Positions 15,156 to 18,804 of a stretch of DNA of 64,000 bases are shown here, in pieces. Location: assembly GCA_003209955.1 (NCBI GenBank), contig QCOD01000002.1, positions 603 to 64,602 of the forward strand. Direction: 5' to 3'. Position 1 is the first letter of the stretch; each line of letters begins with the position of its first letter. Under the pieces are notes generated by a model. That model did no database searches. It worked only from the letters and a program-made list of their open reading frames with translations, and was not told where the DNA came from. The stretch comes from OCS116 cluster bacterium AG-430-B22 (lineage in GTDB: Bacteria; Pseudomonadota; Alphaproteobacteria; MED-G09). The position numbers and the translations under genes are program-made.

Positions 15156-15251
15156 AAAAACCTCCACTGAAGAATAACTAACATAATAATGGTAATTATT
15201 TCTATTCATAATTTGTTTGCTTTTATTTTATTCATAATATAAATATCAAGG

Positions 15252-15335
15252 TGCATTAAGAAAGGGATTATCCCTGCCAACCTGCATACCGTGCGAAGGT
15301 GGTAATATATGTGGCCAAAAGGCAAAAATTAGGTC
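15252..15335 (+). ncRNA. SAM-I/IV (SAM-I clan variant) riboswitch aptamer
   Basis: P1 GCAT(15253-56)/ATGT(15309-12); J1/2 TAAGA; P2 AGGGA-TTA-TCCCT; P3 GCC-AA-CC...GG-T-GGT with a distal TGCAT/GTGCG stem; 3' hairpin GCC-AAAA-GGC. The SAM-contacting core of the SAM-I clan (A6-U88, U7-A87, G11, C44, A45, A46, U57, G58 equivalents) is present. Matched by eye. Confidence 0.8.
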
Positions 15336-15377
15336 TCATTTATTTTCTTAATTTTAACAGAGTTGGCCGCTTAAGGC

Positions 15378-15434
15378 TGGGTATTTGATTTTCAGATTGT
15401 GCACCCAAGATTTACTTAAAGCACTAAAGAGAGG
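15378..15434 (+). ncRNA. SAM-V riboswitch (H-type pseudoknot abutting the ompW RBS)
   Basis: P1 TGGGT/ACCCA flanks ATTTGA-N8-TTGTGC. The pseudoknot partner GCACTAAA (15421-28) runs straight into GAGAGG and ATG 15440. This follows the Pelagibacter SAM-V pattern (AUUUGA..UUGUAC..GUACUAAA) with a compensatory A-U to G-C change. Confidence 0.85.
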
Positions 15435-15439
15435 AAAAA

Positions 15440-16102
15440 ATGAAAAAATTAAATTTTATTAAAATCTTTTTTATATTTTGTTTATTAACATTTATTGGAT
15501 TGACAAATAATCCAGTATTTTCACAAGAAAGTACTTCTTTTAAAAGCGCAGGTAAATGGCTTGTTGGACTCAAGGTACTCAATCTTGATCCAGATGTTGA
15601 TTCCAATGTTTCAATTGGTGGAGAGGCAAAAGTGGATGATGATACTGTTCCTGAATTAGATATCAGGTATTTTATCACTGACAATATTGCTATAGAGGCT
15701 ATTTTTGGAACAACAGAGCATAATGTTTCTGTTGCTGGTTCAGCATTAGGTAATGTTAATTTAGGTACTGTAAAAGTTCTACCACCTACTTTTACTTTAC
15801 AATACCATTTTAATAGCGAAAGTAATTTTCTTCCATATATTGGCGCTGGAGTAAATTACACCTTTTTCTATGATGATAATCCTGGTGATGCTGTCGGCAT
15901 TAGCTATAAAGATGAAGTTGGCTTTGCATTAAATATTGGTTTTGATTATATATTAAGTGAAAATAATTATTTTAATATTGATATAAAAAAGTATGACCTT
16001 TCTACAGATGTAGTTGTAGATGCAGGTGCTGCAGGAATTGCAACAGCAGATGTCGATCTTGACCCATTAGCAATTAGTATAGGCTATGGATGGAGATTCT
16101 AG
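15440..16102 (+). CDS. ompW: OmpW-family outer-membrane beta-barrel
   Basis: Signal peptide, PELDIRYF, VLPPTFTLQYHF, PYIGAGVNYT, C-terminal GYGWRF. Confidence 0.92.
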   Translation: MKKLNFIKIFFIFCLLTFIGLTNNPVFSQESTSFKSAGKWLVGLKVLNLDPDVDSNVSIGGEAKVDDDTVPELDIRYFITDNIAIEAIFGTTEHNVSVAGSALGNVNLGTVKVLPPTFTLQYHFNSESNFLPYIGAGVNYTFFYDDNPGDAVGISYKDEVGFALNIGFDYILSENNYFNIDIKKYDLSTDVVVDAGAAGIATADVDLDPLAISIGYGWRF

Positions 16103-16153
16103 TAAATGTAATTCCTTAAATTACAAGAATCTATTATTTTATTCGGGATTATT

Positions 16154-17269
16154 ATGAATGAAGAACATAAAAAAAATGATTGTTTATTTTATAATGATCC
16201 CGAATCATTATTGCTAGAAAGTGGACAAATAATTAATGGTCACGATATAGCATATAAAACCTACGGGACATTAAATTCAAAAAAAGATAACGCAATACTA
16301 ATTTGTCATGCCCTATCAGGCGACCAATATGTTGCTAGTTCACACCCAATCACCAAGAAAGAGGGCTGGTGGGAAAGAATGGTTGGTAAAGATAAACCAA
16401 TAAATACTAGTCAATTTTTTGTTATATGCATAAATGTCTTAGGGGGATGTATGGGATCGACAGGGCCAGCATCCATTAATCCTGAAACCAATAAAGTATT
16501 TGCAGTAAATTTTCCGATAATAACAATAGCTGATATGGTTAAAGCTCAAGTTAGGTTAATAGATAACCTTGGAATAGAAAAATTAGTTTCTGTAATTGGT
16601 GGTTCTATGGGTGGTATGCAAGCTCTTGAATGGGCTGCTTCCTACCCTGAAAGATTGAAATCAGCAATTCCAATAGCTACTTCCTCCAGACATACTGCAC
16701 AAAATATTGCCTTTCATGAATTAGGTCGTCAGGCAATAATGGCTGATGTAAATTGGAATTCTGGAAATTATAAAGACAAAAATACTAATCCTTCAAAAGG
16801 CCTTTCAATTGCGAGGATGACAGCTCATGTTACTTATTTATCTGAAGCTTCACTAACAAAGAAATTTGGTAGAAAATTACAGGATAAAACAGATCTTGGT
16901 TTTGGTTTCGATGCTGATTTTCAAATTGAGAGTTACCTAAGACATCAAGGTCATACATTTGTTGATAGATTTGATGCTAACTCCTATCTATACATAACAA
17001 GGGCAATGGATTACTTTGACTTGGAAAAAACTCATAAAAAATCTCTTACAGAGATATATACTAACATTAATTTAAAATTCCTAATTGTATCATTTACCGG
17101 AGATTGGCTTTATCCAACATCTGAAAACTTATTGATTGTTAGGGCTCTCAGCGCCGGCGGGGTTGATGTAAGTTTTGTTGAAATTGACTCCGATAAAGGT
17201 CATGATGCATTTTTATTAGATGAGCCAGAATTTGATGTTTGTCTGGATGGATTTCTTAAATCATTATGA
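16154..17269 (+). CDS. metX: Homoserine O-acyltransferase (MetX family)
   Basis: CHALSGD, GGSMGGMQ nucleophile motif, RFDANSY, KGHDAFL. Confidence 0.96.
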   Translation: MNEEHKKNDCLFYNDPESLLLESGQIINGHDIAYKTYGTLNSKKDNAILICHALSGDQYVASSHPITKKEGWWERMVGKDKPINTSQFFVICINVLGGCMGSTGPASINPETNKVFAVNFPIITIADMVKAQVRLIDNLGIEKLVSVIGGSMGGMQALEWAASYPERLKSAIPIATSSRHTAQNIAFHELGRQAIMADVNWNSGNYKDKNTNPSKGLSIARMTAHVTYLSEASLTKKFGRKLQDKTDLGFGFDADFQIESYLRHQGHTFVDRFDANSYLYITRAMDYFDLEKTHKKSLTEIYTNINLKFLIVSFTGDWLYPTSENLLIVRALSAGGVDVSFVEIDSDKGHDAFLLDEPEFDVCLDGFLKSL

Positions 17270-17285
17270 TTAAAAAGCTACAATT

Positions 17286-17891
17286 ATGATTACATTAAGA
17301 AAAGACTTAGACCTTATAGCTAATCTTGTAGAAGATAACTCTAAAGTTATCGATATAGGTTGTGGTAATGGTGAATTACTTAATTTTTTGAGTAAAAATA
17401 AGAACTCAAAAATTCAAGGGCTAGAAATTAATCAGAAAAAAGTAAACAAATGTGTTTCAAAAGGCTTATCAGTTATTCAAGGAGATGCTGATAAGGATCT
17501 AGGCTTATATCCTGAAAAATCCTTTGATTATGTTATTCTTAGTCAAACTATTCAGGCAACACTTGAGCCTAAAAAAATTCTTACTGAACTAACAAGAATA
17601 GGTAAAAGAGCTATTGTTTCAATTCCCAATTTTGGATTCTGGAAAGTAAGACTCGGTCTTTTAGTAAAAGGCAAAATGCCAATAACTTCAAAATTAAACT
17701 CAACATGGTTTGAAACAGAAAATATTCACTTATGCACAATATCTGATTTTATAAATTTATGTGATGAATTGAATCTAAAAATTAAACAAACTGTTACCAT
17801 TGCATCCAACAAACAGAAAAGGTTTTCTGGAAAACCAAATAAATCAGCAAATATATTTGCTGAGGAAGCTATTTTTCTTATTCAAAATTAG
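17286..17891 (+). CDS. metW: Methionine biosynthesis protein MetW (SAM-binding fold)
   Basis: IDIGCGNG, FDYVILSQT, VSIPNFGFW, NIHLCT. Directly follows metX. Confidence 0.93.
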   Translation: MITLRKDLDLIANLVEDNSKVIDIGCGNGELLNFLSKNKNSKIQGLEINQKKVNKCVSKGLSVIQGDADKDLGLYPEKSFDYVILSQTIQATLEPKKILTELTRIGKRAIVSIPNFGFWKVRLGLLVKGKMPITSKLNSTWFETENIHLCTISDFINLCDELNLKIKQTVTIASNKQKRFSGKPNKSANIFAEEAIFLIQN

Positions 17892-18804
17892 ATTTTTTGA
17901 TTTTTTCTATTGGATAAATTTGTGAAATTATTATTCCAATGAAAATTAAAGAAGAACCTGTTAAAATTCTAGCATTAAAGAATTCTGATAAAATTAGCCA
18001 TCCAAAAAAAGCTGCAAATATAGCTTCAGTACTCATTATTATTGCTGCTTCATTTGGAGGAGAATACCTTTGTCCAATCATTTGCAACACAAAAGCAATA
18101 CATACAGATCCAATTGAACAATATAGCAAAGTGATTAAAACTAGAGGATTTCCAAAAAGATTTGGGAAATTAAATAATTCTTTTGGAGAAAATAAAAAAC
18201 CAAAAATTATTAAAACTATAGATGCGAATAAAAATTGTAATATAGCTAATAACATAATTGGATTTTTTTTAACGCCATATGAAAGCACTTGAACATGTAA
18301 TGCCCATAGCAATGAGCCAAGTATTACCCATATGTCGCCTTTATTAATTTTTTCTACCATAAAACTTCCCTCAGGTACGGCCAAAAGTACTGAACCAATG
18401 ATACATATAAGAACTGCTAACCATAATGAAAAATGTGGTACTGAACCTAAAAGAATTCCTATAATTGGAACCAATAAAACATACAAACTAGTAAAAAAAC
18501 CAGCATTAGTGGCAGTTGTAGTAACAAGACCAATCTGTTGGAATAACGCAGCAAATCCTAGTAAAGTTCCTAGGGTCAAACCATAAATTATCAAAGATTT
18601 TGAATCTATTTTTTGAGGTAAACCAAAAATTGGTAGGATTGTTAATAATAAAAATGCACCAATCAGGAATCTTATTGCCGTAAATTGAATAGGGGACCAA
18701 AAGTCCATGGCAATTTTTTGTGGTATAAAAGTTGAACCCCAAATTAATGAAGCAATTAAAAGTATTACAGCTCCTTTTAAATTGTCAGGGTATGTTTTTA
18801 ACAA
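17878..18804 (-). CDS. DMT/EamA family transporter
   Basis: LIWGSTF, QQIGL..TTATNAGF..L, about 10 TM helices. Confidence 0.88.
   Translation of the reverse strand: MLKTYPDNLKGAVILLIASLIWGSTFIPQKIAMDFWSPIQFTAIRFLIGAFLLLTILPIFGLPQKIDSKSLIIYGLTLGTLLGFAALFQQIGLVTTTATNAGFFTSLYVLLVPIIGILLGSVPHFSLWLAVLICIIGSVLLAVPEGSFMVEKINKGDIWVILGSLLWALHVQVLSYGVKKNPIMLLAILQFLFASIVLIIFGFLFSPKELFNFPNLFGNPLVLITLLYCSIGSVCIAFVLQMIGQRYSPPNEAAIIMSTEAIFAAFFGWLILSEFFNARILTGSSLIFIGIIISQIYPIEKIKKSNFE

What the first reader, a model, noticed from the sequence alone, without database searches (positions are those of the whole stretch)
15440..17891. SAM-riboswitch-controlled OmpW channel heading a metX-metW unit: candidate organosulfur uptake system
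Seen: the gene directly under the SAM-V RBS-sequestering element is not a methionine enzyme but an OmpW barrel (LPPT motif, signal peptide). metX follows after 51 nt and metW after a further 16 nt, with only a weak AU-rich hairpin (16107-25) in between. Established: OmpW/AlkL-type barrels pass small hydrophobic molecules. O-acyl-homoserine made by MetX can be sulfhydrylated with sulfide or methanethiol, and marine bacteria assimilate DMSP-derived methanethiol into methionine this way. metXW commonly sit divergent from chorismate mutase-hisC-tyrC, so ompW looks inserted between the riboswitch and metX. Inference: when SAM is low, the cell makes an outer-membrane channel for a reduced-sulfur or methyl-sulfur compound (methanethiol, DMS, methionine or similar) together with the acceptor-generating enzyme. 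I know of no characterized SAM-regulated OmpW.
Basis: partly seen in the sequence, partly recalled or inferred. Interest (0 to 1): 0.85.

Follow-up and report, generated by a model that had tools for sequence, protein, structure and literature searches.

The report
SAM-riboswitch-controlled OmpW channel with metXW
In an abundant small-genome marine bacterium that cannot reduce sulfate, an OmpW-type outer-membrane channel is switched off by S-adenosylmethionine together with the first methionine-synthesis enzyme, and its relatives elsewhere point to uptake of volatile methyl-sulfur compounds such as methanethiol or dimethylsulfide.

Summary
Window 15440-16102 encodes an OmpW-family 8-stranded barrel. 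metX follows after 51 nt and metW after a further 16 nt.

All 19 relatives examined, from the three genera of this small order, keep the whole arrangement. These are the only SAM-I/IV and SAM-V copies in the genome. The only other SAM riboswitch found, a SAM-II, precedes metY. The order lacks CysH/CysD.

The closest OmpWs outside the order (60-70% identical) keep a homologous SAM-V but follow an AlkB-like oxygenase-ferredoxin-67-aa cassette. That cassette carries its own SAM riboswitch: SAM-II in 18 of 20 marine loci tested, SAM-I/IV with or without SAM-V in this order. Published data show matching gene products strongly induced by dimethylsulfide in Methylophaga thiooxydans; M. sulfidovorans has an operon with the same gene set, but orthology was not checked directly.

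Best reading: at low SAM the cell makes an outer-membrane conduit for a small hydrophobic sulfur donor (methanethiol, possibly DMS) alongside MetX/MetW and MetY. Regulation is well supported. The cargo is inferred. I found no earlier description.

The parts
15217..15244 (+). Promoter-like TTGCTT-N15/16-TATAAAT just 5' of the SAM-I/IV aptamer. It would put the transcript start near 15250. Weak inference in AT-rich DNA.
   Evidence: Read from the sequence. The consensus scan did not list it, so there is no statistical support.
15248..15339 (+). SAM-I/IV (RF01725) aptamer, first element of the tandem leader.
   Evidence: 59.5 bits against a cut-off of 41.1. Present in 19 of 19 related loci at 57-66 bits. 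It is the only copy in the genome. The P2 and P4 stems show compensatory changes.
15363..15393 (+). Conserved hairpin (UUGGCC-GCUUAA-GGCUGG) followed by GUAUUUGAUUUUC. It is terminator-like and is a candidate expression platform for SAM-I/IV. It overlaps the 5' part of SAM-V.
   Evidence: Found by the terminator scan. Compensatory changes across 13 leaders: columns 164/174 UA 11, CG 2; columns 165/173 UA 5, CG 5, AU 1; columns 161/177 GU 6, AU 6, GC 1. The hairpin is also present in front of SAM-V in non-met loci.
15370..15437 (+). SAM-V (RF01826) aptamer. Its 3' strand includes the ompW Shine-Dalgarno GAGAGG (15429-15434).
   Evidence: 42.0 bits against a cut-off of 41. In 19 related loci it scores 33.6-44.8 bits, always abutting the ompW start. 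It is the only SAM-V in the genome. The mechanism of the class is described in PMC6061858.
15440..16102 (+). ompW: OmpW/OprG/AlkL-family 8-stranded outer-membrane barrel with a signal peptide, 220 aa.
   Evidence: PF03922 at 163 bits. PDB profile hits to OprG, OmpW and AlkL. AF2 model plus Foldseek. Single copy in the genome. Belongs to a distinct marine clade.
16094..16143 (+). Two-tier AU-rich hairpin spanning the ompW stop codon, followed by a U-rich tail. Candidate partial terminator or 3' stabiliser between ompW and metX.
   Evidence: Local fold of -8.9 kcal/mol. An equivalent hairpin plus U-rich tail is present in all three genera with different sequences. Function not tested.
16154..17269 (+). 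metX, homoserine O-acyltransferase (probably acetyl).
   Evidence: NF001209 at 521 bits against a cut-off of 331. No riboswitch or promoter-like site of its own in the 51-nt gap.
17286..17891 (+). metW, the MetX partner protein.
   Evidence: PF07021 at 253 bits and TIGR02081 at 241 bits.

Best explanation
ompW-metX-metW is one SAM-repressed unit.

Shown:
- A tandem leader of SAM-I/IV, a conserved terminator-like hairpin and SAM-V precedes ompW in every genome of the order examined.
- SAM-V contains the ompW ribosome-binding site.
- metX has no control element of its own.
- The only other SAM riboswitch found in this genome precedes metY.
- The lineage lacks CysH/CysD.

Inferred mechanism:
- When SAM is plentiful, the SAM-I/IV aptamer favours the downstream hairpin and U-tract. 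This attenuates transcription of the whole unit.
- SAM-V folds into its triplex pseudoknot and hides the ompW Shine-Dalgarno, giving a second, translation-level brake on the channel alone.
- When SAM falls, the cell makes three things together. MetX/MetW produce O-acylhomoserine, the sulfur acceptor. MetY joins a thiol to it. OmpW is a small hydrophobic-solute channel in the outer membrane.

Inferred cargo: a small, poorly water-soluble reduced-sulfur donor. Methanethiol is the best candidate in this genome, because MetY could turn it directly into methionine. Dimethylsulfide is the candidate in relatives that also carry the SAM-controlled AlkB-like oxygenase-ferredoxin-67-aa cassette. That cassette is proposed to convert DMS to methanethiol plus formaldehyde.
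For: Anatomy and conservation
- OmpW, MetX and MetW are identified; both aptamers.
- 19 of 19 related loci in three genera are colinear and carry both aptamers.
- The hairpin before SAM-V has compensatory changes.

Regulon
- The genome has one SAM-V and one SAM-I/IV.
- It has one SAM-II (62.9 bits), directly before metY.

Metabolism
- PAPS_reduct (CysH/CysD) is absent in the order, while all 14 control genomes have it.
- MetY, CBS plus a cystathionine lyase, and MetH are present.

OmpW's own tie to SAM
- The window's OmpW lies in a well-supported 26-member clade (SH-aLRT 99).
- Outside the order, its nearest members (L105, L224-226, L103, L021, L228-230) keep a homologous hairpin plus SAM-V before OmpW. 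It scores 38.4 bits in L105 and L225.
- Those OmpWs lie directly after an AlkB-like-Fer2-67-aa cassette.

The cassette is SAM-controlled by three riboswitch classes
- SAM-I/IV at 51-55 bits in genus g3.
- SAM-I/IV plus SAM-V in G011.
- SAM-II-like at 31-33 bits in genus g2.
- SAM-II hits ending about 30 nt before the start codon in 18 of 20 marine loci, with P1 covariation.
- No such hits in 64 kb of control loci.
- Two separate enzyme lineages occur in the same order.

DMS link
- In M. thiooxydans, DMS raises a fatty-acid-desaturase-domain protein about 136-fold, a TodX-type porin about 80-fold, a reductase about 50-fold and glbN about 29-fold (PMC6548844, supplementary file 7).
- M. sulfidovorans has a 66%-identical AlkB-like gene in an operon with exactly these partners.

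Fold: OprG/OmpW barrel with a conserved LPPT.

The SAM-V mechanism is taken from PMC6061858.
Against: - There are no expression data.
- SAM-V scores only just above Rfam's cut-off and shows little covariation within this order.
- The terminator-like hairpin is weak (about -7 kcal/mol, interrupted U-tract). A specific antiterminator pairing is not consistently supported across genera.
- The window's genome and its 95%-complete congener G008 lack the AlkB-like cassette, so the DMS argument reaches this OmpW only through homology.
- Methanethiol and H2S cross membranes readily, so the need for a channel is not self-evident.
- Other members of the same OmpW clade have no riboswitch and sit beside AhpC or a Rieske oxygenase.
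- I did not verify by sequence that MDMS009_226 is the ortholog of the cassette enzyme.
Confidence: 0.55

Rival explanations
1. OmpW is a SAM-repressed outer-membrane entry route for methionine or other small amino acids, as reported for its closest solved relative OprG. It feeds salvage, not synthesis.
For: OprG is the best structural and sequence match. From my own knowledge, SAM riboswitches commonly control methionine importers in other bacteria. Low SAM is the condition under which importing methionine would pay.
Against: This does not explain why the nearest OmpW relatives are built into an AlkB-like oxygenase/ferredoxin cassette. It also does not explain why Methylophaga places a hydrophobic-solute TodX channel at the equivalent position. 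No inner-membrane methionine transporter is part of the SAM regulon found here. Amino-acid transport by OprG is itself disputed (own knowledge).
Confidence: 0.15
2. OmpW is a general hydrophobic-solute or stress-related porin. It landed in the metX leader by chance and is SAM-regulated only as a passenger, with no role in sulfur or methionine metabolism.
For: Several members of the same OmpW clade have no riboswitch and lie next to AhpC, DUF4396/SDF or a Rieske oxygenase plus DoxX. OmpW-family proteins have many proposed roles (own knowledge). The genome has only this one OmpW.
Against: SAM-V sits on the ompW ribosome-binding site itself, not on metX. The SAM-V+OmpW pairing is kept in a second, unrelated gene context. 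The arrangement is fixed across three genera of streamlined genomes. A passenger would not need a dedicated translational switch.
Confidence: 0.12
3. OmpW works outward. At low SAM, when MetX and MetY are induced, it releases a volatile or hydrophobic by-product or excess intermediate across the outer membrane.
For: OmpW-family channels are passive, so direction follows the gradient. An EamA-family exporter-type gene lies convergent to metW (17878-18804) and is conserved in L107.
Against: Losing reduced sulfur during sulfur and methionine limitation would be counter-productive in an organism that cannot reduce sulfate. The relatives couple the channel to a substrate-consuming oxygenase.
Confidence: 0.05

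Closest known systems
OmpW / OprG / AlkL family of small outer-membrane barrels (E. coli OmpW 2f1t, P. aeruginosa OprG 2x27, P. putida AlkL 6qam)
   Same: Pfam OmpW domain, 8-stranded barrel, conserved LPPT region at the lateral opening and similar size. AlkL is likewise encoded with an AlkB-type oxygenase, as are this protein's nearest relatives.
   Different: About 30% identity to the solved proteins. It fails NCBI's OmpW equivalog cut-off (104.6 against 287 bits). It belongs to a separate marine clade. It is controlled by SAM riboswitches and co-located with methionine genes, which the papers I could search do not report for any OmpW.
[quoted passage not shown] 2009, as cited in PMC5069961 and PMC11508383)
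   Same: Two different SAM aptamers in one leader. The first is thought to act on transcription. The second, SAM-V, acts on the ribosome-binding site. Both occur in streamlined marine Alphaproteobacteria that lack sulfate assimilation.
   Different: The first aptamer here is SAM-I/IV, not SAM-II. The gene under SAM-V is an outer-membrane channel, not a methionine enzyme. In HTCC1062, metX has a single SAM-II directly in front of it (PMC2704228).
Riboswitch-controlled outer-membrane transporters (B12 riboswitch with BtuB, TPP riboswitch with TonB-dependent receptors; PMC2211319)
   Same: A metabolite-sensing leader represses an outer-membrane entry route for a compound related to that metabolite.
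   Different: Those are energised TonB-dependent receptors for the cofactor itself. Here the channel is a passive hydrophobic-solute barrel, and the presumed cargo is a precursor (a sulfur donor), not SAM.
DMS-induced AlkB-like/XylM-like operon of Methylophaga (M. thiooxydans expression data, PMC6548844; M. sulfidovorans locus L304)
   Same: The same AlkB-like enzyme family (66% identity to the copy in this order), with a ferredoxin-type electron donor, a roughly 70-aa membrane protein, a truncated globin, and a dedicated outer-membrane channel for hydrophobic solutes.
   Different: The Methylophaga channel is TodX/FadL type, not OmpW. No SAM riboswitch is present there, and its use is presumably catabolic. 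The window's own genome lacks the oxygenase cassette altogether.

Membership tests
OmpW family (Pfam PF03922) | Match to the family profile above the curated cut-off | tested here: met
   163 bits against a cut-off of 24, residues 55-220.
OmpW family (Pfam PF03922) | Eight-stranded beta-barrel fold like solved OmpW and OprG | tested here: met
   AF2 pLDDT 86.7. Foldseek: OprG 2x27 TM 0.78/0.82, rmsd 1.9 A; OmpW 2f1t TM 0.71/0.85.
OmpW family (Pfam PF03922) | Conserved proline-containing LPPT segment at the lateral opening | tested here: met
   VLPPT at 113-117. P115 and T117 are invariant in 45 homologs, and the segment aligns with OprG QLPPT.
OmpW family (Pfam PF03922) | Passage of small hydrophobic molecules | not testable with these tools
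   Needs liposome or whole-cell flux assays.
E. coli-type OmpW ortholog (NCBIfam NF008202 equivalog) | Score above the equivalog cut-off | tested here: not met
   104.6 bits against a cut-off of 287. It is a family member, not an ortholog of enterobacterial OmpW.
SAM-V riboswitch (Rfam RF01826) | Covariance-model score at or above the gathering score | tested here: met
   42.0 against 41 in the window. 14 of 19 related loci are at or above 41 and the rest score 33.6-39.6, all at the same position.
SAM-V riboswitch (Rfam RF01826) | Shine-Dalgarno lies in or next to the 3' strand, so ligand binding can occlude it | tested here: met
   GAGAGG at 15429-15434 lies inside the match and the ATG is at 15440. 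The model of the class is in PMC6061858.
SAM-V riboswitch (Rfam RF01826) | Pseudoknot and triplex supported by covariation, and selective SAM binding | tested here: inconclusive
   The core is almost invariant in the 13 aligned leaders, so it says little either way. Binding needs in-line probing or ITC.
SAM-I/IV riboswitch (Rfam RF01725) | Covariance-model score above the gathering score, with stems kept by compensatory change | tested here: met
   59.5 against 41.1. 19 of 19 relatives score 57-66 bits. P4 pair 84/89 is UA 8, CG 4, and P2 differs compensatorily among genera.
SAM-I/IV riboswitch (Rfam RF01725) | Defined expression platform (terminator and antiterminator) | tested here: inconclusive
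   A conserved, covarying hairpin plus U-rich tract follows. The stem is weak, and a consistent antiterminator was not found across genera.
MetX/MetW homoserine O-acyltransferase pair | Matches to the MetX and MetW equivalog models | tested here: met
   NF001209 at 521 against 331; TIGR02081 at 241 against 189.5. Acetyl versus succinyl specificity is not resolved: TIGR01392 scores 470 (cut-off 500) and NF047916 scores 464 (cut-off 560).
Single SAM-controlled operon ompW-metX-metW | One transcript spanning the three genes, repressed by SAM | not testable with these tools
Support is indirect: gaps of 51 and 16 nt, no riboswitch or promoter-like site before metX, and fixed gene order.

The most novel reading that the evidence does not exclude
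OmpW, MetX/MetW and MetY, plus the AlkB-like oxygenase-ferredoxin-67-aa cassette where present, form a SAM-riboswitch regulon. Through it, abundant marine oligotrophs that cannot assimilate sulfate would take volatile methanethiol and dimethylsulfide from seawater and build methionine from them. This OmpW clade would be the first dedicated outer-membrane channel for volatile organosulfur. The SAM-controlled AlkB-like enzyme would be a widespread, unrecognised DMS monooxygenase (DMS to methanethiol plus formaldehyde) used for assimilation, not catabolism.
Probability: 0.4. Interest if true: 0.9.

Novelty: new variant of a known kind. Interest (0 to 1): 0.8.

Why it matters
Bacteria of this streamlined type resemble SAR11 in depending on reduced sulfur from seawater. 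How volatile sulfur gases enter such cells and reach methionine is unknown.

A SAM-repressed channel placed in front of the acceptor-making enzyme gives a concrete, testable entry point. The OmpW's relatives also lead to a very widespread marine gene cassette: at least 446 metagenome hits in one capped scan. Three different SAM riboswitch classes control this cassette. Genes annotated with the same functions as a Methylophaga sulfidovorans operon built around its homolog are strongly induced by DMS in M. thiooxydans.

If the cassette oxidises DMS to methanethiol, a large and so far uncounted biological sink would exist for the main climate-active sulfur gas, coupled to methionine demand. The case also adds a new pairing of SAM riboswitch classes. 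It shows a riboswitch regulon used as a guide to the function of unknown membrane proteins.

Tried and rejected
- **RNA evidence.** No read-level test of co-transcription or termination was possible.
- **Antiterminator for SAM-I/IV.** In the window, GGCCAA (15312-15317) can pair with UUGGCC (15363-15368), and the MFE fold uses this pairing. The equivalent pairing is not kept in genus g3, where P4 and the hairpin vary independently. I do not claim it.
- **met or riboswitch linkage in the wider OmpW family.** None of 80 OmpW loci from named genomes (60% identity or less) has metX or metW within 2.5 kb. The 20 closest have no SAM riboswitch at Rfam's cut-off. The linkage is therefore specific to one clade, not a general OmpW property.
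- **Riboswitch in other members of the clade.** L109 (Rieske-DoxX-OmpW), L111 (AhpC-OmpW-AlkB-like) and L101 (AhpC-OmpW-DUF4396) have none.
- **The AlkB-like cassette in the window's genome.** Absent by tblastn. It is also absent in the 95%-complete congener G008, so incompleteness of the assembly is probably not the reason.
- **Canonical alkane hydroxylase reading of the cassette.** There is no NCBIfam match at all. SAM control makes alkane catabolism an unlikely role.
- **Literature.** Searches for SAM-regulated OmpW or AlkB/desaturase found nothing. Poiata et al. 2009 is not held.
- **Taxon name.** Only MAG labels could be recovered ('Rhodobiaceae bacterium', 'Hyphomicrobiales bacterium'). 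That this is the HIMB59/AEGEAN-169 lineage is my unverified inference. The paper on that clade does not discuss sulfur.
Full report
**What is in the window**

The plus strand of 15210-17891 carries, in order:
- a 230-nt leader;
- a 220-aa ORF (15440-16102);
- a 51-nt gap;
- metX (16154-17269);
- a 16-nt gap;
- metW (17286-17891).

The first ORF is an OmpW-family protein: Pfam PF03922 at 163 bits, OMP_b-brl at 54 bits. A profile of 45 homologs finds OprG, OmpW and AlkL among solved structures. An AF2 model (pLDDT 86.7) superposes on OprG 2x27 (TM 0.78/0.82, rmsd 1.9 A) and on OmpW 2f1t and 8qxp. The protein misses NCBI's E. coli-type OmpW equivalog cut-off (104.6 against 287 bits), so it is a family member and not an ortholog. 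MetX and MetW are clear (NF001209 at 521 bits, TIGR02081 at 241 bits). A chorismate mutase-hisC-tyrC set lies divergently upstream, and an EamA gene converges downstream.

**The leader**

Rfam finds two aptamers, not one:
- SAM-I/IV at 15248-15339 (59.5 bits, cut-off 41.1);
- SAM-V at 15370-15437 (42.0 bits, cut-off 41).

The SAM-V match ends 2 nt before the ATG and contains GAGAGG (15429-15434). In this class, SAM binding stabilises a triplex pseudoknot and a short helix that occludes the Shine-Dalgarno, giving an OFF switch (PMC6061858).

Between the aptamers lies a hairpin (15363-15380) followed by GUAUUUGAUUUUC, which the terminator scan picks up. In an alignment of 13 leaders from three genera the hairpin keeps pairing through compensatory changes (columns 164/174 and 165/173). 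It is a plausible attenuator for SAM-I/IV. The stem is weak, and I could not find an antiterminator that holds in all genera. This step is inferred.

The layout parallels the known SAM-II/SAM-V tandem of Pelagibacter bhmT (PMC5069961), but with a different first aptamer.

**Conservation**

The window's genome is 1.24 Mb at about 30% G+C. It belongs to an order represented by 25 species genomes in one family and three genera.
- All 19 related loci fetched carry OmpW, MetX and MetW in the same order.
- All 19 carry both aptamers at the same positions.
- The ompW-metX gap keeps an AU-rich hairpin plus U-rich tail in each genus although the sequence differs. This suggests partial termination or 3' stabilisation that would let OmpW exceed MetX.

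Nothing resembling a riboswitch or promoter precedes metX. Any SAM control of metX, which is the rule in Alphaproteobacteria, must therefore come through the ompW leader. In a sample of 401 alphaproteobacterial genomes, SAM-I/IV occurs in 22 genomes outside the family, most often directly before metA.

**The regulon and sulfur metabolism**

The genome has exactly one SAM-V and one SAM-I/IV. It has one SAM-II (62.9 bits), which lies immediately upstream of a 430-aa MetY-type O-acetylhomoserine sulfhydrylase.

CysH/CysD-type PAPS reductase domains are missing from the order: two weak hits in 25 genomes, against all 14 control genomes. MetH, cystathionine beta-synthase and a cystathionine lyase are present.

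The detectable SAM regulon is therefore MetX/MetW, MetY and OmpW, in an organism that must obtain reduced sulfur from outside. MetX makes the acceptor and MetY adds the thiol. The channel is the obvious candidate for supplying the thiol.

**Is OmpW itself tied to SAM, or a passenger?**

A tree of 103 OmpWs puts the window's protein in a well-separated 26-member clade (SH-aLRT 99). Within it, the 19 metX-linked proteins are monophyletic. None of the 77 proteins outside the clade shows a met link.

Inside the clade, the nearest outsiders are 60-70% identical and come from marine metagenome contigs and one MAG. They lie directly after a three-gene cassette: an AlkB-like membrane di-iron oxygenase (PF00487 only, no NCBIfam match), a [2Fe-2S] ferredoxin and a 67-aa two-helix protein.

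In front of these OmpWs is the same hairpin plus SAM-V. It is almost base-for-base identical in L105 and L224-226 (38.4 bits) and more degenerate in L103 and L021. The SAM-V+OmpW pairing therefore exists in two unrelated gene contexts, which argues against a passenger.

Other clade members lack any riboswitch: AhpC-OmpW-AlkB-like, AhpC-OmpW-DUF4396 and Rieske-DoxX-OmpW. SAM control is frequent in the clade but not universal.

**The cassette**

The cassette is outside the window and absent from this genome and from its congener G008. It bears on function.

Other members of the same order have it, always behind a SAM riboswitch:

| Lineage | Riboswitch before the AlkB-like gene | Score |
|---|---|---|
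| Genus g3 | SAM-I/IV | 51-55 bits |
| G011 | SAM-I/IV plus SAM-V | 53.5 and 40.6 bits |
| Genus g2 | SAM-II-like | 31-33 bits |

A metagenome scan returned at least 446 marine homologs. Of 20 short loci scanned, 18 have a SAM-II hit (23-36 bits) on the coding strand ending about 30 nt before the start codon, and three have two in tandem. The aligned elements share the SAM-II core and show P1 covariation. As a control, 64 kb of other loci gave no SAM hit.

The enzyme tree has three groups:
- group I: g3 plus G011, with SAM-I/IV and a globin;
- group II: the Methylophaga type, with a globin and no riboswitch;
- group III: a large SAM-II group that contains genus g2 and the OmpW-linked loci.

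Two enzyme lineages in one order, each under a different SAM riboswitch class, is strong evidence that the cassette serves methionine or SAM supply.

**Link to dimethylsulfide**

Earlier notes of this scan had proposed, from other genomes, that this Gln-box AlkB-like family is a DMS oxygenase. I checked the sources behind that proposal.

In M. thiooxydans, growth on DMS versus methanol changes expression as follows (PMC6548844, text and supplementary file 7):

| Gene product | DMS | Methanol |
|---|---|---|
| Aromatic-hydrocarbon-type outer-membrane protein | 1469 | 18 |
| NAD-binding oxidoreductase | 618 | 12 |
| glbN | 601 | 21 |

The authors state that the primary DMS-degrading enzyme there is unknown.

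M. sulfidovorans carries a gene 66% identical to the order's AlkB-like gene. It sits in an operon with a globin, a Fer2/FAD/NAD reductase, a 71-aa protein and a TodX-type channel. That is the same set of functions as the DMS-induced genes. I did not confirm by sequence that MDMS009_226 is the ortholog.

If the cassette converts DMS to methanethiol, its outer-membrane partner admits DMS. That partner is TodX in Methylophaga and OmpW in the oligotroph contigs. In the window's genome, which has no oxygenase, the simplest cargo is methanethiol itself, which MetY can condense with O-acetylhomoserine to give methionine.

**Verdict**

- SAM-dependent control of ompW is well supported by comparative evidence, at roughly 0.9 in my estimate.
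- That the channel serves sulfur or methionine acquisition is likely.
- The specific cargo is an inference.
- I found no published SAM-regulated OmpW and no published SAM-regulated AlkB-like cassette.

Noticed in passing
window 15248-15437: The leader is a tandem of two unrelated SAM riboswitch classes, SAM-I/IV then SAM-V. This combination differs from the published SAM-II/SAM-V tandem. One relative (G011) has a second copy of the same tandem in front of an AlkB-like gene (L190, 4625-4841).
   Followed up: partly
L189 4608-6972, L190 2899-4841, L191 4637-6425, L105 2057-3866; marine loci L224-L291: A widespread marine cassette of AlkB-like oxygenase, [2Fe-2S] ferredoxin and a 67-aa membrane protein, with a truncated globin in some. 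A SAM riboswitch precedes it in almost every lineage tested (SAM-II, SAM-I/IV, or SAM-I/IV plus SAM-V). It is a candidate assimilatory DMS monooxygenase.
   Followed up: partly
L244 201-382, L239 924-1098, L261 9-181: Three AlkB-like loci carry two SAM-II-like aptamers in tandem before the gene.
   Followed up: no
L156 1501-1621 (G023:C5) and L158 1501-1622 (G016:C2): Longer SAM-I/IV matches (121 nt, 49-51 bits) lie next to DNA cytosine-5 methyltransferase-like genes and not next to methionine genes. In L156 the methyltransferase ORF starts about 320 nt downstream on the same strand.
   Followed up: no
window 17878-18804 (-): An EamA/DMT-family transporter gene converges on metW and overlaps its last 14 nt. 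The same neighbour is kept in L107 and L108. Members of this family export amino-acid derivatives or carry SAM in other bacteria (own knowledge).
   Followed up: no
L010, L013, L019 (genus g2), gap between ompW and metX: In genus g2 a second hairpin (CAAUAAGAGGUUAUCUUAUUG) encloses the metX Shine-Dalgarno. This suggests extra translational control of metX in that genus.
   Followed up: no
G001:C25:14319-14393, G003:C57:10208-10282, G009:C41:1276-1350: Sub-threshold SAM-II-like hits (about 32 bits) lie beside metH on the opposite strand, pointing towards an unexamined divergent gene.
   Followed up: no
L109 and L110, 2261-4648: A member of the same OmpW clade follows a Rieske ring-hydroxylating-type oxygenase and a DoxX protein, without a riboswitch. 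This is another oxygenase-channel pairing.
   Followed up: no
L304 2802-5700: In Methylophaga sulfidovorans a CbbQ/NorQ-type AAA+ protein and a VWA protein lie divergently next to the AlkB-like operon, as earlier notes of this scan also reported.
   Followed up: no
G000:C4:67377-77168: The metY gene with its SAM-II lies 6 kb from a cystathionine beta-synthase plus cystathionine lyase pair. This points to cysteine being made from methionine-derived homocysteine, consistent with the lack of sulfate assimilation.
   Followed up: partly
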